DNA from: Ignavibacteria bacterium
GTDB lineage: Bacteria; Bacteroidota; Ignavibacteria; Palsa-1295
DNA length: 64,000 nt
Reading direction: 5' to 3'
NCBI GenBank assembly: GCA_013287605.1
Contig: JABDDM010000004.1
Coordinates: 233-64,232, forward strand
A program made the position numbers and the translations under genes. The notes beneath the pieces are model-generated. The model did not search any database, was not told the origin of the DNA, and worked only from the letters and a program-made list of their open reading frames with translations. Position 1 is the stretch's first letter. The number at the start of each line of letters is the position of its first letter. Positions 21,901 through 51,776 of this stretch are shown one piece after another.

Positions 21901-22739
21901 GTCACCTTGTATCGGACGAACAAGAGATCGCGATATTTACCGAAGCTCCAGCTGTAGATCACTTCCTGGATGTTCAGCCCAAAGGGATATCCGGTGTTGG
22001 GTCTGTATTCCGGGTTCTGAGTATTGTCGGCATCGTCATAAAAATCGATAATGTCTTCCTGCGACAACATTGCGGGCGTTGCGATCTTCTTGTTGGTCGC
22101 TCCCATCTTTGTCTGCAGCGCTTGCTGATCACGATCCGCTATCTTCGAGACATAGTCTCCAAAATAGAAATTCTGCTTAATAGTTCTTGTTGCGGACGTG
22201 TCCCAGAGCGGCCAATGCACATTGATATCAGGCACAAATGCTGACGGCGCACCTGAATAAGTACCCTTGTACTTATCGTAACGCGAACTCATGTAGGTGA
22301 TGAACTTCGTGTCTGCTTTTGTCGCCTCGTCGGGATCCCCCCACTCGCCTGGGCCATACCAGCCCGCGCCAGAGTTAGGATTATATCCGATCTCACATAG
22401 CTTCTGTCGGCGCCCGGCAATAACTTTCTTCGTAGCGAACCAGAGGCCTCCACCAAAAATATAGGAGTTGGAAGATCCACGCGGCCAAAACAAGCCTTCA
22501 GCCTGGTTGTTGCCCGAGTTGAAAATAACACCTTTGTTTGTCGTATAGAAAAAGATGTTGCTGTAATTATTGGTCTGACGCATGAACCGTTCGGGCTCAA
22601 TTTTGTCCTTCTTCCCTTTCGGAATCGGCCTAGAAGAGGCTTGACCAACTAACATCGCGGGCACGATGAGAACACCCAGGAGGAGCATCACCTTCCGCTG
22701 TAAGCGAGAACGAACGAATGATCGTGAAACCATCATCAC
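18966..22739 (-). CDS. large secreted protein of unknown function (1257 aa) with FN3-like segment and C-terminal PNPY beta-sandwich
   Basis: Signal peptide, VMVTWDS...GYQLYRTT (FN3-like), and a C-terminal VVPNPYIV...KLYFTRLPPRCTIEIYSISGDLIKTIEH (CTD/FlgD-Ig-like) followed by an extra ~80-aa tail. No catalytic motif recognised. Confidence 0.6.
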   Translation of the reverse strand: MMMVSRSFVRSRLQRKVMLLLGVLIVPAMLVGQASSRPIPKGKKDKIEPERFMRQTNNYSNIFFYTTNKGVIFNSGNNQAEGLFWPRGSSNSYIFGGGLWFATKKVIAGRRQKLCEIGYNPNSGAGWYGPGEWGDPDEATKADTKFITYMSSRYDKYKGTYSGAPSAFVPDINVHWPLWDTSATRTIKQNFYFGDYVSKIADRDQQALQTKMGATNKKIATPAMLSQEDIIDFYDDADNTQNPEYRPNTGYPFGLNIQEVIYSWSFGKYRDLLFVRYKVTNTTTKDTLHECYLAPAFDPDLGDPQNDHNTYLADADAVTTLQNPGLAEPYRSHPSKLNMGYQWSEQEQGKEYGVIGFSFLESPTINPSNGEIVDNSDSAALGGYGPSGLQQLGLKTFQKWTLQNDPSTQDLRYDFMAANILNTDKNAKGDMRLLFATGPFILPPGKSVETTIGIGIALADTKTLQKNIDSCIRLMAFAQSVFNNRVGSDTAPQLHHFLSPVPPEVPNLYTQALDRAVMVTWDSASERSFDPLTDSAVALPFIGYQLYRTTRSDHDSTIRPDGQNPVIKLGEWALYNFRQDTVFNSKGKVAGFRFHRLNNTPNPIPHSYFDVGDDNHNGTLESSEGLKNGVKYYYYLIAYDEYDSINNVGPLYTAIVPPKNFVSEIPTKPPFVGIPDSTKLSPGILGCVGNGIKAITIDIADTGKFEQLFTNDTVYVKLQPRWAEFAQAFGNPAPVINQSPLNLYVDVTEQRQGVNLTYDQLFNPLASPPITPYNFPTGLVNHVIGQQGDSTFVGRFITENNAFAPNQLIDQAFRLLVDYQFTQLKAPYRLHSIDVTGADPLGVRLSNRTMHAPPVTDPPVSLSQLDSVTNPSFLGSLGNATYEVDFGDAIPFVGDEFDTIQKKVIHEDQITDKTTKTTFKPMVLPVTIKSIAQPCGQLKPIRPGKVNDVTTEFDCRYYSSSGCGATPVPTWSDPDSMLVPIPGHFALDAYHYTVDDKSANSNLAPFTGLDRHTVDALYFSNNNLADNSSGSKHLITVHRLRLGGAEIILNPQRILATEVGDTTIAATPVADFKAGDKLTITFSGGVSGLPFPDSSFAIYTSGNNNTNFADARLYDVKAVLDQVQVVPNPYIVTHDGQSSTDNAKLYFTRLPPRCTIEIYSISGDLIKTIEHNGYSSTSIPDPNNIGGNITTYDYTRLGDRYSQEEWNLLTEGRQRVGSQVLIARIIARDEHLAAIGETTTKFAVVLGGFHIIKPASN

Positions 22740-22810: not shown

Positions 22811-25800
22811 TTAGAATCGAAGTGCGACGTTCAAGAAGAAACGGCGCGGTGCCTGGTAATTGGTGCGGCGAGCGAATCGATCGTGGCGAAGTAGATCGTA
22901 CATCGTCTGCTGCTCGGCAAGCGAGACCTTCCCATCGTGGTTGAGATCAGCACGGGGATTGTAAAGCAATTTCCCGAGCGGATCGTACTGCGGTCCAAAC
23001 ATCTGGATGATCGCGTTCGTCGGGTTATTATAGAATTCCTGTGTCGCCAACAACTTGTTGTTAGAACCGTCATCATCGCCCTGACCCGTCTGCGCATACA
23101 CGCGGATAGGCTCTGTGCGATTGAAGAGGTTCGTCACTTCGAGCGTTAAGTCGAGGAAGAAATTCTTCATACCCTCACCGAAGATATCACCAAATGGTAT
23201 CGTGCGTGTAAGCTGAGCGTCGGTCTGAAAGTAGTCGGGCTGACGTTCCGCGTTGAACTCGCCAATTTGCACGCCCTTTTGATCAAGACGCGTGTAAGGC
23301 GTACCAGTCTGGTACTCGGTCGTCGAGGATAGCGAAATGTTCTGAAGAAGTTTTGTACCGAATATTGTCGGTCCCTCACCCTTTTGGAAATTCAGGTTGA
23401 AGATGAACTGTGCTACATGTGTACGATCATAGTCCAGTGCGAATGGCTGCAGCGGCAGGACTGCATTCTCAGAATTCGGATTCGCGTTGAGGAGCAATTG
23501 GTAATTTGAAACGGCCGATGAGGATGTTCCTTTCGCGACAGAGTATGTGTAATTTAGTCGCGCAGAGAAGTTATTCGACATCCGCTTATCCATCGTCAAC
23601 TGCAAACTCCGAACATTGCCGTACTGATCATCAGAGTAGATCGTGTAAGCAATCGGGAGCAACGGTCCGCTGATTTGCTGCAATCCCGTATGATTACGGA
23701 GATCCTTGTAGATCCCTTCAATGCTCACCGCAAATACGTCGCTAAGCTGGGTATTGAAGCCAACGGTAATTTCTTTCGTCCGCTCTGCTTTCAGCGCCCC
23801 GTTACCAATAATCTGGTTACCTCGAGCGAATACCTGTTGAAGATTGCCACTTGTATTCGACAACACGTCTGTTAACAGTGGCTCCTTGAAATACCAGCCG
23901 TAGTTAAAGTTAAACGTGGTCTGTTCGGTAACGGCGTATGTGATACCTAAGCGCGGGCTCAATTGCGTCTGGATCGGTGCGGTGCCCACGTTATACGTCG
24001 TCACAGTGTCAATCTTATGCGTGATGCTGTTCAAGACATAATTCGTGTGGAACGGATCGAACAGATTCGTGATATTGCGATCTGAGCCCGGACTATAATA
24101 ATCGAAGCGGACGCCAGGAGCAAAGGTGATATCTGCAAACTCCATCTTATCTTCAACGAAGACATCACCATAGCTTGGTCTCACATCGAACGAGTCCTTA
24201 AACGGGTTCGCATCCCAGGGTAACTGGTTCGAAGTACTCGCTACGTGCCAGAAGTGACCCTCTACCCCTCCATTTAATAAGTGCGCTCCAACCTGCTGAG
24301 TGTAGTTACCGTCGAACTGAATCTGCTGGCGCTGATCGAACGTGTAACCGCCCGCATTGCCGGCAGTGGCAAATTGATTGTATAACCCATACGAATTTGC
24401 CGTTGTTTGAGTGATGAGTGGACCCTCAATATGCCCGGTGAGCGGATTAATGCCGGCGCTTGTAAGCGTCTTTACCTGCGCAGGATTCGTTGGATCAGGG
24501 ATCTGTCGCGAGACTGGAGCGTAGATGTCAATGATCCCATCAGGTCCAGGGGTCAGAATATGATTGTTATCGTCGTAGGTGTACTTATCAGTTGGAGTGT
24601 ATATATTGTACAACGAGAACAAACCGCCAGTGTGCGAATGATCATACTTACCCTCGTCGAATGTCTTTGTAAGATAACTTAGGTCGAACTGAAGAACACC
24701 CTCCCCGATCTGCTTATTGCCACCCAACGTATAAAGATTATTGAGCTCATTGCTAGCGGTTAGATTCGCCGGGTCCGCATAATAATAGAAAACGTCGTTG
24801 TATTGCCGGCTGTCAGAACCAATGGCAACATCCGCATTAAGATTGAATCCAAGCAGTCCAAAAGTCAATTTGCCGGTGACCGTTCGGTAGATGTGGCTCC
24901 GATTTGGAAGTTGACCAGCAGTATTGCCAACCGGGTCGCGCACATCTAATCCCTCGTTGACATATATGGGGGTCGTAAAATAATTGTCGAATTCACGGGT
25001 GTTCCCTTTGGCGGTGATATAGTATTTCAACTCATCGGTAAGCGGACCACCCAAAGCAACTTCGTAGATCTTGTCGTTCTGTCCCAACTGCCTGTAGCCA
25101 TTGCTCGAATAGCCAAACAACGCGGGAAGATCCTGGCGATAGTTGAACAGAAATTCGAAGGCTTCTCCGCCTGCTTTAGTTGTGGAGTTTGCCATCCCAC
25201 CGGTGAAATTTCCATACTTCGCACCTGCGCCTGCAGAGACGACATTAATTTCGGATATTGCAAATTTCGAAAGACCGTTTTGAAGCGCACTCGTATGGCC
25301 GTCAACTGGATCGACCGTTTCCTGACCGTTGATGCGAATCGAGTTAGATGTGCCGCGGCTACCGTTAAAGCTTAGTCCGCCATTCGTAGCATCAGTATAG
25401 ACACCAGGGGTTAGACGGATGATTTCATCAAGACGTTGACGACCAGGCGTATTCACAACATTTGAGGCCGTGAATTTTCGGCCCACATCGGTCGTAGTCT
25501 TCGAAACCATGATCTTCTCGGTCGATACGATGATCGTGTCGACATCGGAATTCGTTAGTTTGAAGGTCAGGGTAGTCGTTTCGTCGGAAAGGACCTTCAC
25601 ATTGGAGATGGTCTGAGGCTTGTACCCAGCGTACTTTGCCATCACATGATAGCCCTCACTCGGTGCAACGTTTATAATCGTCGCGAAGCCGTCATCTTTG
25701 GTATAGGCACCCTGCTTGGTCTCAATGACCTGGACGGTAGCGCGTACCAGCGCTTCTCCCGTTTTCGCATCGACGACCTTAGCACGGATCTTACCCGTTT

Positions 25801-25894
25801 GTGCCGAGGCGGCAGTGAACGAAACAACGAGGGCTACGGCAACGTAGCACATCGAGATGAGGGAGCGAGTAGAAAGAACTCTTCTCAGATTCAT
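22811..25894 (-). CDS. TonB-dependent-receptor-like outer-membrane protein with N-terminal carboxypeptidase-regulatory-like domain
   Basis: Signal peptide (ATG 25894), GKIRAKVVDAKTGEALVRATVQV...GYHVMAKYAGYKPQ (CarboxypepD_reg-like), a plug-like region, a long barrel, and the terminal ...FLNVALRF. Confidence 0.8.
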   Translation of the reverse strand: MNLRRVLSTRSLISMCYVAVALVVSFTAASAQTGKIRAKVVDAKTGEALVRATVQVIETKQGAYTKDDGFATIINVAPSEGYHVMAKYAGYKPQTISNVKVLSDETTTLTFKLTNSDVDTIIVSTEKIMVSKTTTDVGRKFTASNVVNTPGRQRLDEIIRLTPGVYTDATNGGLSFNGSRGTSNSIRINGQETVDPVDGHTSALQNGLSKFAISEINVVSAGAGAKYGNFTGGMANSTTKAGGEAFEFLFNYRQDLPALFGYSSNGYRQLGQNDKIYEVALGGPLTDELKYYITAKGNTREFDNYFTTPIYVNEGLDVRDPVGNTAGQLPNRSHIYRTVTGKLTFGLLGFNLNADVAIGSDSRQYNDVFYYYADPANLTASNELNNLYTLGGNKQIGEGVLQFDLSYLTKTFDEGKYDHSHTGGLFSLYNIYTPTDKYTYDDNNHILTPGPDGIIDIYAPVSRQIPDPTNPAQVKTLTSAGINPLTGHIEGPLITQTTANSYGLYNQFATAGNAGGYTFDQRQQIQFDGNYTQQVGAHLLNGGVEGHFWHVASTSNQLPWDANPFKDSFDVRPSYGDVFVEDKMEFADITFAPGVRFDYYSPGSDRNITNLFDPFHTNYVLNSITHKIDTVTTYNVGTAPIQTQLSPRLGITYAVTEQTTFNFNYGWYFKEPLLTDVLSNTSGNLQQVFARGNQIIGNGALKAERTKEITVGFNTQLSDVFAVSIEGIYKDLRNHTGLQQISGPLLPIAYTIYSDDQYGNVRSLQLTMDKRMSNNFSARLNYTYSVAKGTSSSAVSNYQLLLNANPNSENAVLPLQPFALDYDRTHVAQFIFNLNFQKGEGPTIFGTKLLQNISLSSTTEYQTGTPYTRLDQKGVQIGEFNAERQPDYFQTDAQLTRTIPFGDIFGEGMKNFFLDLTLEVTNLFNRTEPIRVYAQTGQGDDDGSNNKLLATQEFYNNPTNAIIQMFGPQYDPLGKLLYNPRADLNHDGKVSLAEQQTMYDLLRHDRFARRTNYQAPRRFFLNVALRF

Positions 25895-26192
25895 CGTAAA
25901 AGCTAACGAGTACAAAGGTTAACACACCGAACACACACCACCGGCGCAGAGCGCTCCAAGGGTCTACAGCAACATATCGTCAGGAAGCTTCCCCGCTACT
26001 GAAGAGCCATATGGGCTTTCGGGGAAATTCGTCTATTTCCTGAACACACAACTCTCGCGTAAGTCGCAGGAAAGGCCTACCTTAATTTGATCGGCCGATC
26101 AGAGCATGCTACAAAAGGAGATTCTCCACTGCAGGGCGAGACTTGGAGCATCCCGGCCGAAAACCAAAGTTCTCAGCCGGGCGACGCAACAC

Positions 26193-41823: not shown

Positions 41824-41844
41824 GGAGAGGATTAAAGAGATCAA

Positions 41845-41875
41845 GAATGTCCGGTCAGAGTTCGACCGGACATTC
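41845..41875. terminator. bidirectional hairpin terminator between convergent genes
   Basis: 12-bp perfect stem GAATGTCCGGTC / GACCGGACATTC with a 7-nt loop, followed by CTTTCT on plus. Confidence 0.6.
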
Positions 41876-41879
41876 CTTT

Positions 41880-42716
41880 CTAATGCTGAACAATCAATTT
41901 AGACGACGCAATGAGCGAAGAGCCGGAACGGACCTTTACGAAGTAGATGCCGTTCGGCAGAGCGTTAGTAGCAACGCTTACATCATTGCTCCCGCGATCA
42001 AGTGTCACTGAAGCAGATGAACGACGGCGTCCAGCTACATCATAAACTTCTATCGTGGATTCCTGATGACGATCGACGGAGATGGAAAGATTCGCTTGCC
42101 GATTGCTTGGGTTTGGCGAGATGCTGAGTGCCTGTGCAACATCAATGCTTGGTTCGACACCACGAGCCGGCGCAAGTTTGAGGATGTACTTTGGTGCCCA
42201 ATTCCAGAGATCAGAGCAATCACTACCAGAGCTTCCATCGCCATTTACTGCGTTGCCCGTTGCGTAGAGTGTGTCAGTGGTTGCGCCGATCGGAGCTTTA
42301 TAGTTAAACAACCAAGTTGCTGATCCCGAGTTAAGCACCTTCGGACCATTCTGATAAAGCTGTCCCGAATTTGAGCCGAGTCCGTCATTTTTGATGGTGG
42401 TCAATGTTCCCTTCCACACAGAGACGTTCACACCTGCAAGCAATTCTGACGCGTTGGAGACCTTAACCTGAAACTGATAAGTGCCGCCCTGAACGAAGGT
42501 CGTATCGAGAACGACAGGACTGAAGGATACTTGAGTTGCATTATCCGACTGCGGACAATGACAGGTACATCCCTGAATGTTATCTCCGGGACGATTCGTC
42601 GTTTGAATTATCCCGCCAGGATAGCTCGAGGCCTTGAATGTCACATAAAACACACTCAAAACAAAACAAGCTGCGATCCAGAAAGAGCGAGATCTATAAA
42701 TAGTAAACAATTTCAT
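41880..42716 (-). CDS. secreted protein: GCTCHC-motif N-terminal module + T9SS C-terminal sorting domain
   Basis: Signal/anchor MKLFTIYRSRSFWIAACFVLSVFYVTF. GCTCHC at nt 42555-42572. The module is paralogous to the N-terminus of the next gene. CTD is ...SISPNPSNRQANLSI...IEVYDVAGRR...LPNGIYFVKV...KLIVQH. Confidence 0.65.
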   Translation of the reverse strand: MKLFTIYRSRSFWIAACFVLSVFYVTFKASSYPGGIIQTTNRPGDNIQGCTCHCPQSDNATQVSFSPVVLDTTFVQGGTYQFQVKVSNASELLAGVNVSVWKGTLTTIKNDGLGSNSGQLYQNGPKVLNSGSATWLFNYKAPIGATTDTLYATGNAVNGDGSSGSDCSDLWNWAPKYILKLAPARGVEPSIDVAQALSISPNPSNRQANLSISVDRHQESTIEVYDVAGRRRSSASVTLDRGSNDVSVATNALPNGIYFVKVRSGSSLIASSKLIVQH

Positions 42717-42851
42717 GAATGATACAGAAAAGCACAAACTACTTGTTAAGACACAGATTCCTGCGCTTAGGATACACCAATATTTACACCAGCCTTTGAG
42801 TGCCCGAGCAAATCAAGAACGCCATCCTGGGTTGAAATTACACCCAAGCTT

Positions 42852-42883
42852 AAAACAAAAGGCCGCCAAACTGGCGGCCTTTT
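42852..42883 (-). terminator. rho-independent terminator after the 1031-aa adhesin-like gene
   Basis: GGCCGCC-AAACT-GGCGGCC (42861-42879) flanked by A4/T4. The minus strand reads AAAAGGCCGCCAGTTTGGCGGCCTTTTGTTTT. Confidence 0.65.
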
Positions 42884-42895
42884 GAAGCAAATGAC

Positions 42896-45800
42896 TCAAT
42901 GCTGCACAATAATGCGCGCGGATGCGGTAATCGATTCTCCAGCAAACGATTTCCCACTTGTACGAACGATGTAAATTCCGTTCGGTGCGGCCTCGCCTGA
43001 AGCGTTGCGTCCATTCCAAATCCACTGCCCCGTGACGCTGTGTGCCTCGGCGACAACCCGTCCCATGAGATCGAGCACTTGCGCATCGGCTAAACGAATG
43101 CCTTCAAAGTTGAATGCAATCTGACCGTGCGTTGGATTCGGGTTCGCTGTGATCGAGAAGCTCTTTGGCTGAAGCGATGCGACGCCTGAAGTAGTAAGTG
43201 TTCCTGTGATCGGATAAAGCGTACTTGTAATCCCCTGCTCACTCATGACGACAAGTGTGTCGAGATACGTACCAGCCTGAGACTCGAGCAATGAAATGCG
43301 AACATAGATCGAAGCCTGATCAGCCAGTAAGAATGGAATCGTTGAATCCGGAGACGTGAGAGTCTCAGAATAATGAGTGCCGCTCATAAGCCCGACACCA
43401 TCGATCTTCACTCGATGCCCCGAATTATTCGTAATCTTCGAGATCCACGATTTTGCACCATCTGATTTCAGCGTGATCACTATGTTCTCTGTCGAAGCCG
43501 AAACGAGCTGAAGGTTTGTCGTATCCGGTAGGATTGGTCCGACTGATCTGCCGACTCCGTGAAGTGTGACATCCGTCGTCTTACCGTCACTCTTTGAGAT
43601 CGTAAGTTTCGCTGAAAATTGGCCTGCTCCAGGTGGATCGAATGAGACCACAACATTCAGTTTCCCTGCGGTTTGCAAGGTCGCCGGCAGTGCAGGCAAT
43701 GTTGACTTCACGCCAAACATACTCGCATTTGCGCCTGTAATCGCCACAGACTGAATCGTCACCCCTGCTGTCCCGGTATTTGTAATGTCTACCGGCGAGG
43801 TTACAGTCTTCCCCGAATCAACAGTGCCAAAATCGAGGCTGGCGGGCGAGATGCTCAGTGCTCCCTCCAAACCATGTCCTGCGAGTCCGATCGTCAATGT
43901 ATGTGCGTTCGGATCATCCGTCGTCAGCGTGAGCGTACCAGAGTAGTTTTGGGCTGCAGTCGGCTTGAACGAAAGCGTGACATGAATGCTCGAGTTACCT
44001 GCGATGGTATGACTGACCGAGTCCTTCACACTAAAGACACCGCTCGCATCCGTCAGTGTATACTTAAGAATATTGACACCAGCCGCGCCGGTATTTTGGA
44101 GCGTGATGATCGTGTCGTGCGAAGTTTGCGTAGCAACACCCAGGAAATCAACGTTCGATGGAATGTTGAGAGCGCTATTGATACCCGCGCCCTTCAGATA
44201 TACCACCGTCGAGGGTTTGTTGAGATCGTCGCTCGCAATCGCGACCGAACCGGTGAACGAGCCAACAGTCGTTGGTGCGAAGTTAATTGAAACGATCGCG
44301 CTTGTTCCCACATCCACACTCGACGGTTTTGACTTGAGTGAGAATGGCGGCGAAGGCAATGGGACTGCGCTCGCAAGATTGAGCACATCGGTCCCTGTGT
44401 TTTGAACCGTAATACCCCGCGAAGCAGGAGCTGCGTTGATTCGTACGCTGCCAAAGTCGAGCGTATCTGCCGGCTGCACAGCAATGTGCGGAGCAAGCCC
44501 TTGTGCGATGACCGTAACGTTCGAAGTCGGATTCGCGGCATCATCAGTTGCGATCGCGATGCTTGCAGTGTCGAATTTTTCAGCAAGTGGAGAATAGTTT
44601 ATCAGTACTACTCCCTGTCCGCTTGGAGCGATCACTGGCGAAAAGTTTGAGATACTAAATCGTGCTGCGTTGCTGCCCGAGAGCGTAACTCCCGAAACGT
44701 GTAAGGAATCTGTGCCCGTGTTGCGAATAATGACACTCCCTTGCGTCTGTGCGTTGACGCGGACTCCACCGATGTTCGTCGGAGAAGTCACAGCAATCGT
44801 TGGAGCAATGCCAGTACCGGACAACGCTACCGTCGGAATCGTAAAGCCAGGCGCGCTAAGTGTGAGCGTGCCATTGTAAGTCGTTTTTGCAACTGGACTG
44901 AATCGCACTACCACCGAATCAGTCACGCCCGGAGGAAGCGCCAACCTCGTCGGCTGCGTTGCGATGGCAAATCCGCTACCGGAAATACTAGGAGACTGCA
45001 TGAACAGCGTATCGTCACCCGTATTCGAATAGACGAAGCCCTTCAATTTTGTCTGATTCGTTCGCAAGTTTGCAAACGCCAGCGTGTTGCCGCCGGAATA
45101 GATGGCCTGGATACCTGTGCCATTGAGGTAAACGGCCTTGCGCTGATCGGCAGGCGCGTCAACATCAGATGTAATGATGAGCGAATCGGTGTAACTTCCG
45201 CGCCCTGTGGGCGCAAAATAAATTGTGTCGATCTCCTGCGTACCATTGGCGATCGAGCGACTGCTCGTTGTTGGATAGCGGCTGAACGCAGTACCGGTCT
45301 TAAGCGACGTGTTAACCGTGATTGATGCCGTGCTCGTTGAACGGAGCTGCATCGTATCTTTCTTTGTCCTGCCAACGCGCAAATTCCCCATTGAAATCGA
45401 ATTGCGGCTAAGAGTGATCGCCTTCGTCACTGGTAAATCGACAACTGTGATCACATACTTCGGCGAGAAATTCCAAACATCGGTGCAGTTGCCTCCGCCG
45501 TTACTTCCGTCGAGATTCACAGCGTTACCAGTACCAAAGAGTGTGTCGGTGCCGCTTGTTGATGGAGCGGTATAGGTAAATGACCAACTTGCTGGCAGCG
45601 ATGTCGCTGCAGCACTGTGCGTCAATTCATTATTGATGACCTGCGACCCTGTTCCTGCAGTGAGCGTGCCTCGCTGAACCGCTACCTCGACGCCCGCTCC
45701 AGATTCTGACGAATTCGAAACCGTAACAGTGTACGTATACGAATGACCAGTATAGATCGTCGTTGCGGCCGTAGAAAATGATACCGTGGTGGAAGAATTC

Positions 45801-45991
45801 GCCGACGCACAATGACATGTACATCCTGAAGTGTTGCCACCTTTTTGAGTAAGCCCAGCGATATTCTGCCCATTCGAATGGGCATTTGCTTGATAGATGA
45901 CATAAACCCCTGCCAGGAGCATTGTCATGCCGATCCAGAGGCTTCGTAAAAACGCCTTTCGCATGAACGACCGAGTATCAACGATTTTCAT
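42896..45991 (-). CDS. large surface protein: GCTCHC-motif module + at least 6 tandem Ig-like (ASH/choice-of-anchor-D-like) domains + T9SS C-terminal sorting domain
   Basis: GCTCHC at nt 45809-45826. Repeats of the type LDFG.V......I.I.NTG...L.I......G.....F. CTD is ...FSITANPNPTHGQIAFNF...LDLMGRVV...APNGIYIVRTSGKSF...ARIIVQH. Confidence 0.75.
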   Translation of the reverse strand: MKIVDTRSFMRKAFLRSLWIGMTMLLAGVYVIYQANAHSNGQNIAGLTQKGGNTSGCTCHCASANSSTTVSFSTAATTIYTGHSYTYTVTVSNSSESGAGVEVAVQRGTLTAGTGSQVINNELTHSAAATSLPASWSFTYTAPSTSGTDTLFGTGNAVNLDGSNGGGNCTDVWNFSPKYVITVVDLPVTKAITLSRNSISMGNLRVGRTKKDTMQLRSTSTASITVNTSLKTGTAFSRYPTTSSRSIANGTQEIDTIYFAPTGRGSYTDSLIITSDVDAPADQRKAVYLNGTGIQAIYSGGNTLAFANLRTNQTKLKGFVYSNTGDDTLFMQSPSISGSGFAIATQPTRLALPPGVTDSVVVRFSPVAKTTYNGTLTLSAPGFTIPTVALSGTGIAPTIAVTSPTNIGGVRVNAQTQGSVIIRNTGTDSLHVSGVTLSGSNAARFSISNFSPVIAPSGQGVVLINYSPLAEKFDTASIAIATDDAANPTSNVTVIAQGLAPHIAVQPADTLDFGSVRINAAPASRGITVQNTGTDVLNLASAVPLPSPPFSLKSKPSSVDVGTSAIVSINFAPTTVGSFTGSVAIASDDLNKPSTVVYLKGAGINSALNIPSNVDFLGVATQTSHDTIITLQNTGAAGVNILKYTLTDASGVFSVKDSVSHTIAGNSSIHVTLSFKPTAAQNYSGTLTLTTDDPNAHTLTIGLAGHGLEGALSISPASLDFGTVDSGKTVTSPVDITNTGTAGVTIQSVAITGANASMFGVKSTLPALPATLQTAGKLNVVVSFDPPGAGQFSAKLTISKSDGKTTDVTLHGVGRSVGPILPDTTNLQLVSASTENIVITLKSDGAKSWISKITNNSGHRVKIDGVGLMSGTHYSETLTSPDSTIPFLLADQASIYVRISLLESQAGTYLDTLVVMSEQGITSTLYPITGTLTTSGVASLQPKSFSITANPNPTHGQIAFNFEGIRLADAQVLDLMGRVVAEAHSVTGQWIWNGRNASGEAAPNGIYIVRTSGKSFAGESITASARIIVQH

Positions 45992-46265: not shown

Positions 46266-49200
46266 TTAGAGTTGACTCGGTCGAGCGTAGAGCTTCGAGA
46301 GTAACCCAAAGAGGTTTTTAATATGATCAGCATCATACCCTTCTAGCGCATTCGATCCAGTTGCCTCAACAGTGTACTTCTGTGCAATTTCGAGTGCTTG
46401 CATCACGCTTCGATCTCCGAGCTTGCGATAGCTCTCGAATTCGGCTTCATCGAACCACTGATTTGGCAGCGAGTTATCAGGGAAGGCATCGTTCTCGCGT
46501 TTGTACTGCAGAACATCTACCTTTTCGCTTGCCGTCATCGATGGTTTGATCACGATGATCGTACCTTGCCTGCTATCGCGGTCTGTGTTACGCCAACCCA
46601 ATTCTGTTACATGCGCTTCGGAGTACGTGATCTTGCCGACGATAAAATGTTGGGCGTTGTTTCCATCGGCACCCGGAATGAGCGGCGTTAGATCGAGGTC
46701 GAACTCGGCACCGAAGTCAATGCGAGCACGACGAATGGCGTTTCCAAGATCGTCAAACGAAGGTGGGTCCCTATCCGCACCATTATCGCAAACCACGATG
46801 AACTTGCAAGCCCGCTGGATCAACGGATAGAGTCCTGTATTATCAAAGTGCCCTCCATCCGTGAGATAACAATAGGTAGTCTGCTCATTTGTCTGACTCA
46901 GCAGTTCGCGGATCATATAATACGGCCACAGTCTCGGCTGCGGCGATTTCCAGTGAGCTTTGTTGGGAGTGGGCGCCCAATAGCCGAGACGAATATTGAG
47001 CAAGGACATGAGCATCACAAGCGAACTTCCCGGCGTCTTGAAGCCCATATTCGGACTAGCTGCAGCGCCAGAAGTCGAGACCGCCGTACCAAGCGTCAGC
47101 TTCCCCGCCATGTATTCATCGGTCTTGCGATACCCTGTTCGCATTGAGCCGCAGTAGCGCTTACTCATGAGAAAGGAATCGGAACGGCGTTGCGCGGTTG
47201 CAAGATCGTTGCCCGCAACCAGATTCAATGTCGTCTGGATCAGGTGGAGCGGCCCTCCCTGGCTGCAGTTCTCAAGGTCTTTGAGATTAATGTCGTCATT
47301 TTGCACAGCATCATATATCTCCTCCTGGGAATCACCTCGCTCACGATTGGAGGCACCGAGATAGGCACGTACCAGCCTTGCTTTGTAGAATGTATGAATC
47401 GAGATCGCATTCGGGTCGATCATCCACCCCACGACTGCAACAAACGAGATCGCGAGCGATATTAATGTGACGGTCGAAGCCATTAATGAAAGCCGTGTAC
47501 TCGGCGTGGTGACGAAAAAGCTAAGCATCTGCATGAGCGTAAGGAGCGAATAGAGCAAAGCGAGCGTCGCAAATGTTCGAACGTTACGCTTCGAGCGCGC
47601 ATAGCGAATCTCGAACAGTATGAACGTGAGGACGATGATAAGGCCTGCGCAGCTCAGGAGCGCGATCTCCGGGGTATCAGCTCTATATCGCTGTGACACA
47701 TCGATCAAATGATCTACCAATTCGTTGACACCTGCGGCCAACAAAAGCAAACCAACCAGAAACATCGGTTTATGACCCTTTAACCAAAGGGACATTCTTG
47801 CAAGCGGCCGATTTACACGCGTTGGACTGAGACCGGTCGGATAGTACAGAACTACCCGATATACCAGCCCCGCACCGATCATGATAACCACGACAAACCA
47901 GTAAGCGGCAAGGTCATCGTCGATTCTCTTTGTCGGATTCTGCAAAGCCAAATAGATCGCGGCCGCTGCAATTACAAGAGCAACCGAAATCAGCGACCAT
48001 CGCCAACGACGAGCATCCGTACCCTCTTCCCATTCGATCTCCGTCGCTGCATAAAAGAACAGCACAGAAATCCCAACGAATGCAAGTCGCGTTAATAGGT
48101 GGTAAGCGGTGGCGTCCATCTTGTCCATGCTTCCGAGCAGATTGGTAGTGAGCCATGACGACTCCGCCAGCATTACCAGGAGTACCAGCGTGGGAGCGAC
48201 GAGAAGTATTAGATTGCGAAATCCAGAAGGCGCCTGTTGTTTTGTATGGTCGGATCCTCCCTTGGGTGAAACGACAACCGAAGTATAGATCGCGGCTGCG
48301 AGCGAGGCAAGGATCGCTAGCGGACCTCCATTCTGAAGAATGGCTTTCCCAAACAATCCCTCGGGATTGCTTTGGTCGATGATAACGCGCATCATATAGC
48401 CGCCGAATCCGGCAAAGAGCAGCACGACGAAGGTTATCGCAAATGTCACAAGCAACGTCGCATGCTTATTTACGATGCGATTGCGAAGGATCTCCTTAAA
48501 CGAATGTCCCTGAATCTTCGCATCAAGCAAGTCAGGTTTTTTCTTGAACACATTGATCAATAGTCCATACGCTATGATGAACCAAAGTGTTGCGCCGAAG
48601 CCGATATGATACGGGTGCTGTTGGACGTATTTCCACATTGCGGAGAAGCCAACGCCCTGCAGACGGAACAGCCACAGAATCAACAAAGCTACAACGAAGC
48701 CCGTGGCTGGCGCGACTCCGAGGATCCGACGACGCGTACGAGGGGCATTATCTCGTACACATTGCATCCATGCGGTCGTCAGCATGACGATCCAACCGAA
48801 GATCGCCAGGAGAGGCCAAAGGGCAAACTCGGCTCGGTTAATCAAATAATAATTTCCAGCACGCTTTACATAATTGAGAGAGTCCTCAGTGTTAAGTGAT
48901 ACGATCCTGGCGTGGTATAATCGCGATTTCTCGCTGTCTGCCTTCGCCGAATCACGGCGAGCAAGTTTTATCTGCGATGCGATGGAGTCTTTGAAACTCG
49001 CGAGCGCCACTGCGTCGCGATTGAGGAACTCGGTAGAATATGGCGTCCTTCCTTTCGGAAATGTGAACTCGATATTCGATTCAGGTTGCAGCGTGAAGTA
49101 GAACTGACCAACAAGAAGTGCTGCAATGAGGATCGGAACAAAAACAAGCCAAGTCAATACGAGATTGCGGGAGATCACAGCAGTCGCCCGCCATGTATCC

Positions 49201-49700
49201 GCACTGAGCAGCCCTTTGCGAGGCGTCAGATAATTCGAAAAAAGGCGAAGGTGGTGAATGGGATCCTTGCCCGCAGAAGCTGCGCTGTCAGGCAGATCAC
49301 GTAATCCGGGTTCGGATTTCTTACCAAAATAAGCAGAACGTTCATAGGCAATCTTTTCTTCATCCGGGAAGAGTCCTTTCCACTTGTTCTCTTTTCGAGA
49401 GAGCCATGCGCTCCACCAACCGCCCGTATATCCTCCACCGGAAACAGTTGAGAGATAATCGAAGATACCGAGGAGGTTGAGACGATGCAAGGCTTGCAGG
49501 ACCCCAAGCGAGAAAGTCGCGCTGCGAATGCCACCACCGGAAAGCGCAAGTCCTACGAGGTTCGACGGATCCGCCTGTTCCTTCGTTTCGGACCGATCTC
49601 GCCGAACGGCAATATCGGAAAGCTCCGCTTTGAATACATCTTCAAAGGTACTGGGGGCTTGAGGTGGCGGAGGCGGTATAGTCACACGCGCTGCAGTCAA
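46266..49700 (-). CDS. patatin/cPLA2-like phospholipase with ~14-TM insertion between the catalytic Ser and Asp motifs
   Basis: GLALSGGGIRS (oxyanion hole, aa 50-60), STVSGGG (Ser87), hydrophobic helices across aa ~176-761, then FYKARLVRAYLG, TAVSTSGAAASPNMG, LTDGGHFDNTGLYPLIQR (Asp948, nt 46857-46859). Non-ATG start (TTG 49700 or GTG 49685). Confidence 0.8.
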   Translation of the reverse strand: MTAARVTIPPPPPQAPSTFEDVFKAELSDIAVRRDRSETKEQADPSNLVGLALSGGGIRSATFSLGVLQALHRLNLLGIFDYLSTVSGGGYTGGWWSAWLSRKENKWKGLFPDEEKIAYERSAYFGKKSEPGLRDLPDSAASAGKDPIHHLRLFSNYLTPRKGLLSADTWRATAVISRNLVLTWLVFVPILIAALLVGQFYFTLQPESNIEFTFPKGRTPYSTEFLNRDAVALASFKDSIASQIKLARRDSAKADSEKSRLYHARIVSLNTEDSLNYVKRAGNYYLINRAEFALWPLLAIFGWIVMLTTAWMQCVRDNAPRTRRRILGVAPATGFVVALLILWLFRLQGVGFSAMWKYVQQHPYHIGFGATLWFIIAYGLLINVFKKKPDLLDAKIQGHSFKEILRNRIVNKHATLLVTFAITFVVLLFAGFGGYMMRVIIDQSNPEGLFGKAILQNGGPLAILASLAAAIYTSVVVSPKGGSDHTKQQAPSGFRNLILLVAPTLVLLVMLAESSWLTTNLLGSMDKMDATAYHLLTRLAFVGISVLFFYAATEIEWEEGTDARRWRWSLISVALVIAAAAIYLALQNPTKRIDDDLAAYWFVVVIMIGAGLVYRVVLYYPTGLSPTRVNRPLARMSLWLKGHKPMFLVGLLLLAAGVNELVDHLIDVSQRYRADTPEIALLSCAGLIIVLTFILFEIRYARSKRNVRTFATLALLYSLLTLMQMLSFFVTTPSTRLSLMASTVTLISLAISFVAVVGWMIDPNAISIHTFYKARLVRAYLGASNRERGDSQEEIYDAVQNDDINLKDLENCSQGGPLHLIQTTLNLVAGNDLATAQRRSDSFLMSKRYCGSMRTGYRKTDEYMAGKLTLGTAVSTSGAAASPNMGFKTPGSSLVMLMSLLNIRLGYWAPTPNKAHWKSPQPRLWPYYMIRELLSQTNEQTTYCYLTDGGHFDNTGLYPLIQRACKFIVVCDNGADRDPPSFDDLGNAIRRARIDFGAEFDLDLTPLIPGADGNNAQHFIVGKITYSEAHVTELGWRNTDRDSRQGTIIVIKPSMTASEKVDVLQYKRENDAFPDNSLPNQWFDEAEFESYRKLGDRSVMQALEIAQKYTVEATGSNALEGYDADHIKNLFGLLSKLYARPSQL

Positions 49701-49876: not shown

Positions 49877-50341
49877 GTGGATACATCGACCGCATATGGC
49901 ATCGAAGCCGGGCGTGCGCTTGATCTTTGGACGAAGCTGGCACGCGCGTTCACGACGTTTAACAAATTGACCATCAAGGATATTTCTGCGTATGGATTAA
50001 CACAGCCGCAGTTCGCTGTGCTTGAAACCATCGGACATCTTGGCCCGATGACCATCGGACTGCTCTGCAAGAAGATGCTGGTCTCCGGTGGGAATATGAC
50101 CGTGGTGTTGGATAATCTCCAGCGTGAAGGTCTGGTTGAGCGGGTAACAAATAAAGATGACCGTCGCTCTATCGAGATACGCTTGAGTGCGGAAGGCACA
50201 AGGCTGTTTAGCGAGATCTTCCCCAAGCATGCGAGTTATGTCGCGAATATCGCGAAGGTTCTCACGCCTGAAGAACAACGTGATCTTGCCGCAATGCTAA
50301 AGAAGCTTGGTACCTCATTGTCAGAAAGATTTGACGGCTGA
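49877..50341 (+). CDS. MarR family transcriptional regulator
   Basis: Winged-helix region LTQPQFAVLETIGHLGPMTIGLLCKKMLVSGGNMTVVLDNLQREGLVERVTNKDDRRS. GTG start. Divergent from the patatin-like gene. Confidence 0.85.
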   Translation: MDTSTAYGIEAGRALDLWTKLARAFTTFNKLTIKDISAYGLTQPQFAVLETIGHLGPMTIGLLCKKMLVSGGNMTVVLDNLQREGLVERVTNKDDRRSIEIRLSAEGTRLFSEIFPKHASYVANIAKVLTPEEQRDLAAMLKKLGTSLSERFDG

Positions 50342-51776
50342 TTTCAAACCTTTCCTTCTTCGATTCATCCGATCTATCAGCAGCGGCACGATCGAGAATA
50401 CAAGCCCGGCATACATCGGCTCCATTCCCCACAAGTACTGAGGCGAGACCGCATCGCCACGAGTTACCCCAAGGAGGTAAGCTGTGAGCGATCCCGAGAG
50501 TCCCAGCACCGTACTCCAGAATGCAGCCTTGGGACTGGGACGCCATTTGGGGAAATAGCTTAATGTTAGCGGGAAGAGAATCGCTGGCACCATGATCGAT
50601 CCGAGCGCATACCAGATCAAATAGATCTTCGGCGTGATCTGAATTATGACAAACGTAACAATCGCGGTGATAAGCAATCCGTAGCGAGTGAACCGCGTGA
50701 TCTTCGTAACATCTCCATACCCAAACAATCGCCAAAGGATATCATGACCTACAATCGTAGCGCTTGTAAACGTGAAGGCATCGACCGCACTCAATTCGGA
50801 TGCGAGTAAGCCAGTGTAGAATACACCTTTGAGTCCCATCGGCAGCACACGTTCTGCGAGCGCTGGATAGGCGAATCGACTTTCAGGAAGCGAGGCGAAT
50901 GCCGCTCTGGCATAAAGCCCCGCAAGATTCGTCATCAGATCAAAAACCAGCCAGCAGCCAACCGAGATAATCAATCCCCACTTCGCGACCTGGGGCTTCT
51001 TTGCAGCAAACACTCGCGTGTTCACATTCGGATCGACGAGCGTGCTAAGCGCAATGATGTACCACACAGCGATGTACCACGGACTAAGCCCGCCTGTCGG
51101 CTTCAAATGACCCGGCGGAACGTGTGATACAATAAAACTCCAACCACCAAATGTTTGGTAAGCGTATGGCAGAACCACTGCAAAGCCGAAGAACATTGTC
51201 AGGAAGCGCAGCGAATCTGCCCGCACAGGTGCTCGCAAACCGCCCATCAGCAGATACGGTAATGGAGTAACGACCGCAATGATCATCCCTAATGTCGTAT
51301 TGATTCCAAAAAAACCACTGATACAGCGTGCCCAGCGTCATGATATATCCAGCAGGACTCGTCAGGAAGAAGACGATTCCTGCACCAAGATAGCCCGTAC
51401 GCTCCCCGTAGGTTGATCGCAGGCGATCAGGAATGGTCGCATTCGCACGATCGCTGTTAACTCTGTGCGCCAGAAAGAACGCGAAAAGAAGTGCTGCGGC
51501 ATAATAAGGTATGCCGAAGACAACCCACATCACGATTCCTTTATCATACGAGAACTCGCCAACGCCAAGCACTCCGCCATACCACATCGTGACGAGAGTC
51601 GCGACGAATGCAGGTATTGTCAGCGTTCGACCGGCGAGGATAAAGTCTTCTGCATCGCTCTTGGGCTTATGCCGGCGAACGGTGATGAAACCGATGAGTG
51701 AATTGGCAGCGATATAGAAAATGATGATCGCAAGATCGAGTCCGCCTAAATGTGGCGTGAGCGAAGTTGACATCAT
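50321..51776 (-). pseudogene. sodium:solute symporter (SSS) family transporter interrupted by a 1-nt frameshift
   Basis: Track ORFs 51084-51776 and 50321-51286 are the N- and C-terminal parts of one SSS protein. Removing one base from the A7 run at 51308-51314 gives the continuous sequence ...LYQWFFGINTTLGMIIAVVTPLPYLLMGG... (about 484 aa). Confidence 0.75.

What the first reader, a model, noticed from the sequence alone, without database searches (positions are those of the whole stretch)
41880..45991. Two adjacent T9SS cargo paralogs share an unassigned ~150-aa N-terminal module with invariant GCTCHC motif
- **Shared module:** right after the signal sequence, both proteins carry the same module.
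  - 278-aa protein: ...NIQGCTCHCPQSDNATQVSFSP...YQFQVKVSNASELLAGVNVSVWKGTL...WLFNYKAP...DTLYATGNAVNGDGSSGSDCSDLWNWAPKY
  - 1031-aa protein: ...NTSGCTCHCASANSSTTVSFST...YTYTVTVSNSSESGAGVEVAVQRGTL...WSFTYTAP...DTLFGTGNAVNLDGSNGGGNCTDVWNFSPKY
- **Conserved residues:** three Cys plus His sit in GCTCHC, a fourth Cys lies near the end, and the GNAVN.DGS and D.WN..PKY blocks are shared. Even the codons match (GGATGTACNTGTCATTGT).
- **Possible role:** the overall pattern (N-terminal Cys/His cluster, then a beta-sandwich-like alternation) recalls reeler/DOMON-type ligand- or metal-binding domains. That comparison is only an impression.
- **Arrangement:** the short paralog is module plus CTD only. The long one inserts at least 6 Ig-like domains. 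A terminator (42852-42883) separates the two genes.
- **Interpretation:** a secreted Cys3-His module displayed by T9SS could be a metal- or cofactor-binding or redox domain.
Basis: partly seen in the sequence, partly recalled or inferred. Interest (0 to 1): 0.62.

Follow-up and report, generated by a model that had tools for sequence, protein, structure and literature searches.

The report
Surface domain with probable haem-c site
Two neighbouring secreted surface proteins share a named but uncharacterised domain (choice-of-anchor V) whose one invariant motif, Cys-X-Cys-His, is most likely a shortened covalent haem attachment site, so the family may be an overlooked class of small cell-surface cytochromes.

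Summary
Two tandem minus-strand genes (278/285 aa and 1031 aa) share a ~150-aa N-terminal module (BLASTP 2e-38), and a strong terminator lies between them.

The module is not unassigned. Both copies match NCBIfam NF041895, "choice-of-anchor V domain" (97 bits, cutoff 42). Pfam has no model for it. The family is large: 3,820 clusters at 50% identity.

Only G-C-Xn-C-H is conserved across the family. In 353 non-redundant modules n = 1 (330), 2 (18), 4 (4) or 5 (1).

The fold is an Ig-like beta-sandwich. Its best full-length PDB match is the F-spondin Reeler domain (TM 0.54-0.57).

I think the motif is a contracted haem-c site (confidence about 0.5):
- Myxococcota-type members all carry canonical CXXCH.
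- Archaeal members sit at the end of a ccmF-ccmC-ccmA-ccmB cytochrome c maturation cluster, beside multihaem cytochromes.
- A CKCH motif is a proven haem site in Kuenenia KsTH.

The main rival is a disulfide-stapled loop that presents the His for metal or ligand binding. No haem binding has been shown. A biochemical test would be simple.

The parts
42896..45991 (-). Long paralog gene, 1031 aa: signal peptide, choice-of-anchor V module, Ig-like stalk, T9SS-type C-terminal domain
   Evidence: ORF. NCBIfam and Pfam domains. Only 4 Cys in the whole protein, all in the module.
45881..45991 (-). Sec-type signal peptide of the long paralog (aa 1-37, predicted cleavage after A-N-A; no twin-arginine motif)
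   Evidence: Read from the sequence. The cleavage site is inferred, not computed by a predictor.
45440..45880 (-). Choice-of-anchor V module of the long paralog (aa 38-184), Reeler-like beta-sandwich with an N-terminal arm
   Evidence: NF041895 at 97.8 bits against cutoff 42. AF2 pLDDT 86, pTM 0.82. Foldseek matches.
45809..45826 (-). G56-C57-T-C59-H60-C61. C57, C59 and H60 form the family-invariant C-X-C-H (proposed contracted haem-c site). C61 is clade-specific.
45617..45628 (-). E122-L-T-H125, second conserved block. His is present in 312 of 341 modules. It is a candidate distal ligand, which is an inference.
45485..45487 (-). C169, a clade-specific Cys that co-occurs with C61 (probable extra disulfide), just before the conserved D171-x-W173-N174
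   Evidence: Cys pattern counts. Coordinates.
43172..45439 (-). Stalk of the long paralog (aa 185-940), with at least 6 choice-of-anchor D / ASH / HYDIN-type Ig-like domains
   Evidence: NF012200 at 215 bits in 6 stretches. PF22073, PF22544 and PF15780 each in 6 stretches.
42899..43165 (-). C-terminal sorting domain of the long paralog (aa 943-1031), T9SS type A-like but below the curated cutoffs
   Evidence: TIGR04183 at 20.1 bits (cutoff 23) and PF18962 at 17 bits (cutoff 27). Aligns to the short paralog's CTD (E = 9e-8) and has the same ...IVQH end.
42848..42888 (-). Intrinsic terminator between the two genes
   Evidence: Hairpin dG -25.7 kcal/mol, z = -5.99, followed by UUUUGUUUU.
41880..42716 (-). 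Short paralog gene, 278 aa from the ATG (the ORF extends to a TTG at 42737): signal peptide, module, 17-aa linker, T9SS CTD
   Evidence: An identical 278-aa protein is in the public collection (P0054).
42174..42629 (-). Choice-of-anchor V module of the short paralog. It has GCTCHC (42555-42572), but the ELTH block is degenerate (QLYQ at 42351-42362).
   Evidence: NF041895 at 97.3 bits. Alignment. Coordinates.
41883..42122 (-). T9SS type A C-terminal sorting domain of the short paralog
   Evidence: TIGR04183 at 46.8 bits (cutoff 23) and PF18962 at 44.4 bits (cutoff 27).
41843..41877 (.). Bidirectional terminator-like hairpin between the short paralog (-) and the convergent SBP_bac_5 gene (+)
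   Evidence: 15-pair and 12-pair stems found on both strands.

Best explanation
**What it is**
- Both genes encode Sec-exported proteins that the type IX secretion system (T9SS) sorts to the cell surface.
- In each, the first ~150 residues after the signal peptide form a choice-of-anchor V domain (NCBIfam NF041895).
- The domain is a Reeler-like Ig-type beta-sandwich preceded by a ~30-residue arm that carries the only invariant motif of the family, G-C-Xn-C-H. In this window the motif is CTCH (n = 1).

**Proposed mechanism**
- The motif is a contracted c-type haem attachment site. In the periplasm the cytochrome c maturation machinery joins haem to C57 and C59 by thioether bonds, and H60 becomes the proximal iron ligand.
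- The conserved His of the E-L-T-H block may be the distal ligand.
- The folded holo-domain is then exported by the T9SS, the C-terminal domain is removed, and the protein is tethered to the outer membrane.
- The short paralog would hold a monohaem redox domain at the cell surface. The long paralog would hold one at the far end of a stalk of at least 6 Ig-like domains. The likely role is electron exchange with extracellular partners such as minerals, humics or other cells, or redox or ligand sensing.

**Shown here**
- Family membership, domain architecture, motif conservation and spacing variation, the fold, and the gene neighbourhoods in relatives.

**Inferred**
- Haem attachment, the identity of the distal ligand, anchoring chemistry, and physiological role.
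For: **1. Motif pattern**
- In 353 non-redundant modules both Cys and the adjacent His are always present, while the spacer varies: n = 1 (330), 2 (18), 4 (4), 5 (1).
- The spacer changes between domains that are still 50-61% identical, so it has shifted repeatedly.
- An invariant C...CH with a free spacer length is the known signature of haem-c sites. This rests on established knowledge, and review PMC7096707 says the adjacent Cys-His is the critical part.

**2. Whole clades use the canonical motif**
- All 5 Myxococcota-type members with MYXO-CTERM-like tails have GCG[ANDS]CH.
- L093, L094 and L095 are bona fide NF041895 members (92-107 bits) and have CTSCH, CTACH and CNDCH.

**3. Gene context in the archaeal clade**
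- In L085/L086 the module gene directly follows ccmF (PF01578), ccmC (PF01578), a 145-aa ORF, ccmA and ccmB. An octahaem cytochrome lies on the L086 contig.
- In L084 it directly follows ccmA-ccmB. In L081 one gene for an N-terminal CXXCH protein lies between ccmB (PF03379, 5.5e-19) and the module gene, and a tetrahaem cytochrome lies nearby.
- The same clusters hold other proteins built as signal peptide, CXXCH, then Ig-like domain.

**4. Other cytochrome neighbours**
- L093 and L095 have a small CXXCH cytochrome-c-like lipoprotein immediately upstream.
- In L051/L066 a tandem module pair abuts a cluster of 18-, 13- and 6-CXXCH cytochromes, including MtrC-like domains and a cytochrome b561 fusion.

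**5. Precedent**
- A contracted CKCH motif binds haem c in Kuenenia stuttgartiensis KsTH (Ferousi 2019, as described in PMC7096707).

**6. Compatible features**
- Both proteins have a Sec-type signal peptide with no twin-arginine motif.
- Cys is otherwise absent from the 1031-aa protein.
- The module is always at the mature N-terminus.
- With a deeper alignment AF2 models the sandwich at pLDDT 90-97 but the motif arm only at 68-77.
- The window encodes one other secreted CXXCH protein (400-1692), so the organism probably matures c-type cytochromes.
Against: - No experiment or structure shows haem in any member.
- n = 1 is the rarest documented haem-c spacing, yet it is the majority form here. 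From memory, E. coli Ccm was reported to handle n = 2-6. I could not read the primary CXCH paper.
- In the 80 bacterial genome loci there is no enrichment of cytochrome neighbours. 17 of 946 ORFs have any CXXCH, and multihaem clusters occur at only 3 loci. The contextual support therefore comes from a few lineages, and the ccm-linked archaeal contigs are related to one another.
- The putative distal His is not universal: Q in 26, N in 2 and Y in 1 of 341 modules. It is lost in the window's own short paralog.
- Foldseek found no cytochrome among the top PDB matches, and the best match (Reeler) is not known to bind haem.
Confidence: 0.5

Rival explanations
1. Non-haem binding site. C57 and C59 form a short disulfide that staples a loop of variable length. 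The loop presents the invariant His, together with E122, H125, N156, N159, D171 and N174, as a mononuclear metal site (Cu, Zn, Fe or Ca) or a ligand site. The module would be the binding tip of an adhesin-like surface protein, as in Reeler-type extracellular domains.
For: - The fold is Reeler/Ig-like, and the nearest structures are adhesin, cohesin and matrix-protein domains.
- Fusion partners are stalk or adhesion domains: ASH/HYDIN Ig, Big_7, BNR/sortilin, F5/8-C, PKD.
- The module is always distal to the anchor, as in fibrillar adhesins.
- Several conserved polar residues lie outside the motif.
- Most bacterial loci have no redox neighbours.
- 282 of 327 CXCH modules have exactly two Cys, an even number compatible with one disulfide.
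Against: - A metal site built from C, C and H should not tolerate spacers of 1, 2, 4 and 5 residues.
- A purely structural staple does not explain why His must always directly follow the second Cys.
- It does not explain the placement next to ccm genes and beside cytochromes in archaeal and other loci.
- It does not explain the canonical GCGxCHG form in Myxococcota-type members.
Confidence: 0.3
2. Purely structural domain. The module is a passive cap or spacer domain of surface proteins, and the Cys pair and His are conserved only for folding or stability, with no cofactor or specific ligand.
For: - No enzymatic or binding family matches.
- The generic Ig-like fold resembles stalk domains such as CLIPPER (9ifr, top Foldseek E-value).
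Against: - About 15 positions stay invariant or near-invariant across very divergent lineages of bacteria and archaea.
- The domain is strictly at the N-terminus.
- It is retained as the only functional domain in hundreds of ~267-aa module-plus-CTD proteins. Together these points indicate the module is the functional part.
- The context evidence is the same as above.
Confidence: 0.12
3. The shared motif is a trivial result of recent gene duplication within this genome and carries no functional signal.
For: The two genes are adjacent, and the six motif codons differ only at one third-codon position.
Against: - The paralogs are only 38% identical overall.
- The tandem pair is conserved in a relative with 77-82% nucleotide identity.
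- The motif is conserved in thousands of homologues across phyla.
Confidence: 0.02

Closest known systems
NCBIfam NF041895, choice-of-anchor V domain (and the related NF041894, MXAN_6652 family MYXO-CTERM-anchored protein)
   Same: - Both window proteins score 97 bits against a cutoff of 42 over essentially the whole 150-position model.
- The position (N-terminal, after the signal peptide) and the use of alternative C-terminal anchors match the family concept.
   Different: - The window copies are divergent members. Typical members score 125-160 bits.
- They carry an extra Cys pair (C61/C169).
- The short copy has lost the ELTH block.
- In the sources I could read, the family has a name but no described function.
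Reeler domain (Pfam PF02014; F-spondin structures 2ZOT, 2ZOU, 3COO)
   Same: - It is the best full-length structural match: TMq 0.54, TMt 0.57, rmsd 3.7 A over 142 columns. 8 of the top 20 PDB hits are Reeler chains.
- Both are extracellular N-terminal beta-sandwiches of about 140 residues.
   Different: - Sequence relationship is not established. Only 3 of 95 members give sub-threshold Pfam hits (best E = 3e-4), and the window copies give none.
- Identity in structural alignments is 12-14%.
- The Reeler domain is not known to carry a C-Xn-C-H motif or haem.
Contracted CKCH haem-c motif of the tetrahaem cytochrome KsTH from Kuenenia stuttgartiensis (Ferousi et al. 2019, J Biol Chem 294:16953)
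   Same: A Cys-X-Cys-His motif in a Sec-exported protein. In KsTH it was shown to bind haem c covalently (as summarised in PMC7096707).
   Different: - KsTH is a small, soluble multihaem protein in which the other sites are canonical.
- Here the CXCH would be the only haem site, on a beta-sandwich.
- No homology is implied.
- I could not read the primary paper.
Cytochrome f (large domain)
   Same: From established knowledge: a c-type cytochrome whose body is a beta-sandwich, with haem attached at a C-X-X-C-H about 20 residues from the mature N-terminus. This is the same layout as proposed here.
   Different: - Cytochrome f did not appear among the top 50 Foldseek matches.
- Its motif is canonical.
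- Its sixth ligand is the N-terminal amino group, whereas the mature N-terminal residue here is not conserved.
- The resemblance is an analogy only.
Fibrillar adhesins and T9SS cargo with N-terminal functional domain, Ig-like stalk and C-terminal anchor
   Same: The architecture of the long paralog: N-terminal module, then 6 or more choice-of-anchor D/ASH Ig-like domains, then a CTD. The concept is described in PMC9210967.
   Different: - No known adhesive domain family matches the module.
- Most family members have no stalk at all (module plus CTD, about 267 aa).

Membership tests
NCBIfam NF041895 choice-of-anchor V domain | HMM score above the curated cutoff (42 bits) over most of the 150-position model | tested here: met
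   Short: 97.3 bits, model positions 2-142. Long: 97.8 bits, model positions 4-143.
NCBIfam NF041895 choice-of-anchor V domain | The domain is combined with different C-terminal sorting or anchor signals in different proteins | tested here: met
   - T9SS CTD in most members.
- MYXO-CTERM-like Cys + TM + RRR tails (L074, P0279-P0282).
- IPTL-CTERM (P0082; 17 bits, below the 20.5 cutoff).
- PEF-CTERM-like tails (P0017, P0019; by eye only, no HMM hit).
- Dockerin-like repeats (L085, L087-L091).
-.
NCBIfam NF041894 MXAN_6652 family (equivalog) | Score of at least 200 bits and a MYXO-CTERM anchor | tested here: not met
   49 and 61 bits. The anchor is a T9SS CTD.
T9SS type A cargo (TIGR04183 / PF18962 C-terminal domain) | C-terminal sorting domain above the curated cutoff | tested here: met
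   Short paralog: 46.8 bits (cutoff 23) and 44.4 bits (cutoff 27).
T9SS type A cargo (TIGR04183 / PF18962 C-terminal domain) | The same feature, for the long paralog | tested here: inconclusive
   20.1 bits (cutoff 23) and 17 bits (cutoff 27). It does align to the short paralog's CTD (E = 9e-8) and shares the terminal IVQH.
NCBIfam NF012200 choice-of-anchor D domain (stalk of the long paralog) | HMM score above cutoff (45 bits), in repeated copies | tested here: met
   215.5 bits in 6 stretches. Pfam ASH, HYDIN and Cep192_D4 each match in 6 stretches.
c-type cytochrome | Haem attachment motif C-X-X-C-H (or an accepted variant C-Xn-C-H/K) in a Sec-exported polypeptide | tested here: inconclusive
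   - The window proteins have the contracted variant C-T-C-H, not the canonical motif.
- Relatives have n = 2, 4 and 5 at the same column.
- A Sec-type signal peptide is present.
- The CXCH precedent is known only from a review.
c-type cytochrome | Covalently bound haem (haem stain, pyridine haemochrome, +616 Da) | not testable with these tools
   Needs protein biochemistry.
c-type cytochrome | The host genome encodes a cytochrome c maturation system (Ccm or CcsBA) | not testable with these tools
   - Only a 64-kb window is available. It contains one other secreted CXXCH protein (400-1692) but no maturation gene.
- In archaeal relatives the ccm genes are adjacent.
Reeler domain (PF02014) | Pfam HMM at or above the gathering threshold | tested here: not met
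   No hit for either window protein at E <= 1. 3 of 95 family members hit below threshold. Only fold similarity was found.

The most novel reading that the evidence does not exclude
The whole choice-of-anchor V family would be a previously unrecognised class of monohaem c-type cytochromes.
- It comprises about 3,800 clusters at 50% identity in Ignavibacteriota, Kapabacteria, Chlorobiota, Calditrichota, Myxococcota and archaea.
- The cytochromes would be built on a Reeler-like beta-sandwich.
- Most would use the contracted CXCH attachment motif.
- They would be displayed on the cell surface through interchangeable anchors: T9SS, myxosortase, archaeosortase-type, dockerin.
- That would make CXCH a common natural haem-c motif rather than a curiosity. 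It would also add a simple, abundant surface redox protein to the extracellular electron-transfer toolkit of these phyla.
Probability: 0.45. Interest if true: 0.78.

Novelty: new member of a known kind. Interest (0 to 1): 0.55.

Why it matters
- As annotated today, these are two more "choice-of-anchor V domain-containing proteins" of unknown function, which is ordinary.
- The family-level pattern found here is not recorded in any source I could read. That pattern is an invariant C-Xn-C-H with a variable spacer, canonical CXXCH in whole clades, and linkage to ccm operons and cytochromes in archaea.
- If haem is attached, haem-motif searches that require CXXCH have been missing thousands of surface cytochromes.
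- The substrate range of the maturation systems would then routinely include n = 1.
- T9SS-bearing environmental phyla would have a very simple surface redox module, sometimes held on long Ig-like stalks.
- The claim can be tested in days with a recombinant domain.

Tried and rejected
- **PDB sequence and profile searches.** The 22- and 95-sequence profiles found nothing meaningful.
- **Pfam.** No model covers the module. Only scattered sub-threshold Ig-like hits appeared.
- **Conserved gene neighbourhood in 80 bacterial genome loci.**
  - Only clade-level synteny was found: sigma-54 regulators and a small 2-TM Cys-rich protein in Ignavibacteriaceae, and a 217-aa lipoprotein in Kapabacteria.
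  - There is no enrichment of CXXCH neighbours: 17 of 946 ORFs.
  - Tandem duplication of the module gene occurs in only 5 of the 80 loci.
- **C101 as an alternative distal ligand replacing H125.** An odd third Cys occurs at position 101 in about 26 members. I rejected the idea because C101 occurs with H125 in 20 cases and with Q125 in 6. The position alternates with T, V, F and I, which I read as buried.
- **N-terminal histidine brace** (the mature N-terminus is His in the long paralog and in some Ignavibacteria). Rejected, because the column is His in only 25 of 192 rows.
- **Homology between the module and the neighbouring archaeal 'signal peptide, CXXCH, Ig-like domain' proteins.** The best score is only 8.7 bits, so this is unresolved. 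I treat it as an analogy.
- **Literature.**
  - No paper mentions MXAN_6652, and none was identified that discusses choice-of-anchor V.
  - None links T9SS to this family.
  - The CLIPPER domain (top Foldseek E-value) is a generic isopeptide stalk domain.
  - The primary CXCH paper is not held.
- **Model geometry.** Model coordinates are not exposed, so Cys-Cys distance, pocket volume and the position of H125 relative to H60 could not be measured.

Full report

The two ORFs exist as described. One is 42896-45991(-), 1031 aa.

BLASTP between them gives 38% identity over the N-terminal ~190 residues (E = 2e-38). A second match covers the C-terminal ~85 residues (E = 9e-8).

The shared codon string GGATGTACNTGTCATTGT occurs exactly twice in the window, once in each gene, with none expected by chance.

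The hairpin between the genes folds at -25.7 kcal/mol (z = -6.0) and is followed by a U-run. A second, bidirectional hairpin follows the short gene.

The long protein has 6 HMM-detected Ig-like stretches and a weak T9SS C-terminal domain (CTD). The short one is module, 17-aa linker and a clear T9SS CTD.

Cys is strikingly rare. The mature long protein has four Cys in 1031 residues, all inside the module.

**2. Is the module unassigned?**

It is unassigned in Pfam but not in NCBIfam. Both copies match NF041895, 'choice-of-anchor V domain', at 97 bits against a cutoff of 42. They also match, below threshold, the related NF041894 'MXAN_6652 family MYXO-CTERM-anchored protein'. NCBI already names relatives 'choice-of-anchor V domain-containing protein'.

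The family is large. A profile of 22 modules found 3,820 representatives (50%-identity clusters) at E <= 1e-3 and 1,824 at E <= 1e-10 among 1.84 billion proteins.

In species-representative genomes the closest relatives of the long protein are ~920-aa proteins of Candidatus Kapaibacterium MAGs (53-59% identity in the module). The common form is a ~267-aa module-plus-CTD protein of Ignavibacteriota. Further members occur in Chlorobiota/Chloroherpetonaceae, Calditrichaceae and Kryptonium.

The module always starts within the first ~20-80 residues, directly after the signal peptide.

The tails found are:
- T9SS CTD;
- MYXO-CTERM-like tails (Cys motif + TM + RRR) in L074 and P0279-P0282;
- an IPTL-CTERM-like tail (weak hit, below cutoff);
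- PEF-CTERM-like tails in Bathyarchaeia-labelled proteins (by eye, no HMM hit);
- dockerin-like repeats in further archaeal-type contigs.

**3. What is conserved?**

Across 353 non-redundant modules the invariant core is G-C-Xn-C-H.

| Spacer n | Modules | Examples |
|---|---|---|
| 1 | 330 | CTCH, CSCH |
| 2 | 18 | CGTCH, CGGCH, CNDCH, CGNCH |
| 4 | 4 | CGGGNCH, CGQSGCH, CQQSGCH, CSQAGCH |
| 5 | 1 | CGEGGGCH |

Spacer changes occur between domains that are still 50-61% identical, so they happened repeatedly.

They co-occur in 22 sequences of the Kapabacteria-like clade, with a single exception that has C61 only. They therefore most likely form an additional disulfide. That would place the motif next to the loop preceding the conserved D171-x-W173-N174.

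Of 327 CXCH modules, 282 have exactly two Cys.

Other conserved blocks are G-[IV]-x-G-x-T before the motif, E-L-T-H (aa 122-125), Y-T-A-P, G-N-[SA]-V-N and D-x-W-N. The His of ELTH is present in 312 of 341 modules, with Q in 26. The window's short paralog has QLYQ there.

**4. Fold**

AlphaFold2 gives a confident beta-sandwich (pLDDT 86, pTM 0.82-0.83). With the deeper alignment the sandwich core is at pLDDT 90-97, whereas the N-terminal arm carrying C-X-C-H is at 68-77.

Foldseek against the PDB returns only generic Ig-like folds at modest scores. The best full-length matches are the F-spondin Reeler domain (2ZOT, 3COO, 2ZOU): TMq 0.54, TMt 0.57, rmsd 3.7 A over 142 columns, and 8 of the top 20 hits (weaker).

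Three of 95 diverse members also give sub-threshold Pfam Reeler hits, best E = 3e-4.

No cytochrome appears among the top matches.

**5. Mechanism**

Three lines point to covalent haem c.

(a) The motif behaviour matches the known property of haem-c attachment sites: two Cys and an immediately following His are invariant, while the number of residues between the Cys is free. It is hard to reconcile with a fixed-geometry Cys2His metal site, and a mere disulfide staple does not require it. A review states that the adjacent Cys-His is the critical element and that a contracted CKCH motif binds haem in the Kuenenia tetrahaem protein KsTH (PMC7096707; reference confirmed).

(b) Entire clades use the canonical motif:
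- All five Myxococcota-type members have GCG[ANDS]CH.
- One member of the archaeal clade has CGQCH.
- L093, L094 and L095, three distant T9SS members that pass the NF041895 cutoff, have CTSCH, CTACH and CNDCH. A fourth, L096, has the n = 4 form CSQAGCH.

(c) Gene context is informative where it exists:
- In contigs L085/L086 the module gene is the last gene of a run of ccmF (658 aa, PF01578), ccmC (PF01578), a 145-aa ORF, ccmA and ccmB. An octahaem cytochrome lies on the L086 contig. Proteins built as signal peptide, CXXCH and then PKD/CARDB domains lie on these contigs.
- In L084 (a Bathyarchaeia-labelled MAG) the module gene directly follows ccmA-ccmB.
- In L081 one gene for an N-terminal CXXCH/CARDB protein lies between ccmB (PF03379, 5.5e-19) and the module gene, and a tetrahaem cytochrome lies nearby.
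- L093 and L095 have a small CXXCH cytochrome-c-like lipoprotein immediately upstream.
- In L051/L066 a tandem module pair abuts 18-, 13- and 6-CXXCH cytochromes with MtrC-like domains and a cytochrome b561 fusion.

The signal peptides are Sec-type, as haem-c maturation requires.

The proposed pathway is as follows. The protein is exported by Sec, and haem is attached in the periplasm. The T9SS exports the folded holo-domain. The CTD is then cleaved and the protein is anchored to the surface.

In the short paralog the redox domain would sit at the membrane. In the long paralog it would sit at the end of a stalk of 6 or more domains.

**6. Caveats**

- Nothing here demonstrates haem.
- n = 1 is the least documented spacing, and I could not read the primary paper.
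- In the 80 bacterial genome loci there is no conserved redox neighbourhood and no excess of CXXCH neighbours.
- The ccm-linked contigs are related to one another, so they count as few independent observations.
- The ELTH His is not universal.
- Fusion partners are adhesion or stalk domains.
- The best structural relative is not a haem protein.

A disulfide-stapled loop presenting His for metal or ligand binding in an adhesin-tip domain therefore remains a serious rival (about 0.3). A purely structural role is less likely (about 0.12).

**7. Local genomic setting**

The closest public relatives are L082 (JGI 3300020908) and L083 (Logan SRR8433711), at 77-82% nucleotide identity. They keep the tandem long + short pair (1023 + 281 aa) and the downstream SBP_bac_5, OMP and pirin genes. 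The duplication is therefore older than this genome, although tandem pairs are rare elsewhere (5 of 80 loci).

Neighbours in the window are unrelated by function: a peptide-type solute-binding protein, a patatin-like protein and MarR. They give no functional clue.

**8. Verdict**

The module is a divergent member of a named, functionally uncharacterised family, so the genes themselves are new members of a known kind.

The comparative analysis yields a specific, testable and, as far as I could find, unpublished hypothesis: choice-of-anchor V domains are Reeler-like monohaem c-type cytochromes that mostly use a contracted CXCH motif.

| Score | Value |
|---|---|
| Confidence in haem | about 0.5 |
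| Interest | 0.55 |
| Interest if the family-wide reading is true | about 0.78 |

Noticed in passing
window 400-1692 (-): - A 430-aa protein with a signal peptide and a single CMGCH haem-c motif at residue 41. The body looks beta-barrel-like and ends in Phe.
- It has no Pfam or NCBIfam hit.
- From memory, the layout resembles Cyc2-type fused cytochrome-porins of iron oxidisers. That is a lead only and was not tested by homology.
- It suggests the organism makes outer-membrane c-type cytochromes.
   Followed up: partly
window 46266-49700 (-): - A 1144-aa protein with an N-terminal patatin-like phospholipase domain and many hydrophobic segments.
- It occupies a ~3.7-kb segment that is absent from the otherwise collinear relatives L082/L083. 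There MarR lies directly upstream of the long paralog.
- It is therefore an insertion in this lineage or a deletion in the relatives.
   Followed up: partly
window 50321-51776 (-): - The sodium:solute symporter gene is split into two overlapping ORFs (321 and 230 aa).
- tblastn with the intact 477-aa orthologue of L082 switches frame near 51309-51313.
- This is a frameshift, so either a pseudogene or a sequencing error.
   Followed up: partly
L085/L086, L081, L084 (archaeal-type metagenome contigs): Next to ccm genes and multihaem cytochromes lie several extracellular proteins built as signal peptide, CXXCH and then Ig-like PKD or CARDB domains (for example L081 1369-2490, L084 1768-2541, L086 2507-3343 and 10696-12588). 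They may form a wider class of N-terminal haem plus Ig-like surface proteins.
   Followed up: partly
L085, L087-L091: Archaeal-clade choice-of-anchor V proteins end in paired dockerin-like repeats (GDxDGDGDVDxxDF...) instead of a PEF-CTERM-like tail. This is a further anchor type for the family.
   Followed up: no
L074 7923-9947: A 674-aa Myxococcota-type member joins the module (GCGACH) to about 10 Cys/Asp-rich repeats (CDDxDxxIxPGAxExxDGxDxDCDG) and a MYXO-CTERM-like tail.
   Followed up: no
L020, L022, L025, L036, L047, L055, L057-L060, L063, L067, L069, L072, L073, L079: - In Ignavibacteriaceae a conserved ~113-aa protein lies upstream of the module gene on the same strand. It has two TM helices and a Cys-rich tail (CSTCRHFD...C...C).
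- It has no Pfam hit.
- The arrangement may be only clade-level synteny.
   Followed up: partly
window 18966-22739 (-) and 22811-25915 (-): A 1257-aa protein with no Pfam hit lies directly downstream of a CarboxypepD_reg/TonB-dependent receptor-like outer-membrane protein. This could be an uncharacterised SusC/D-like or surface-protein pair.
   Followed up: no
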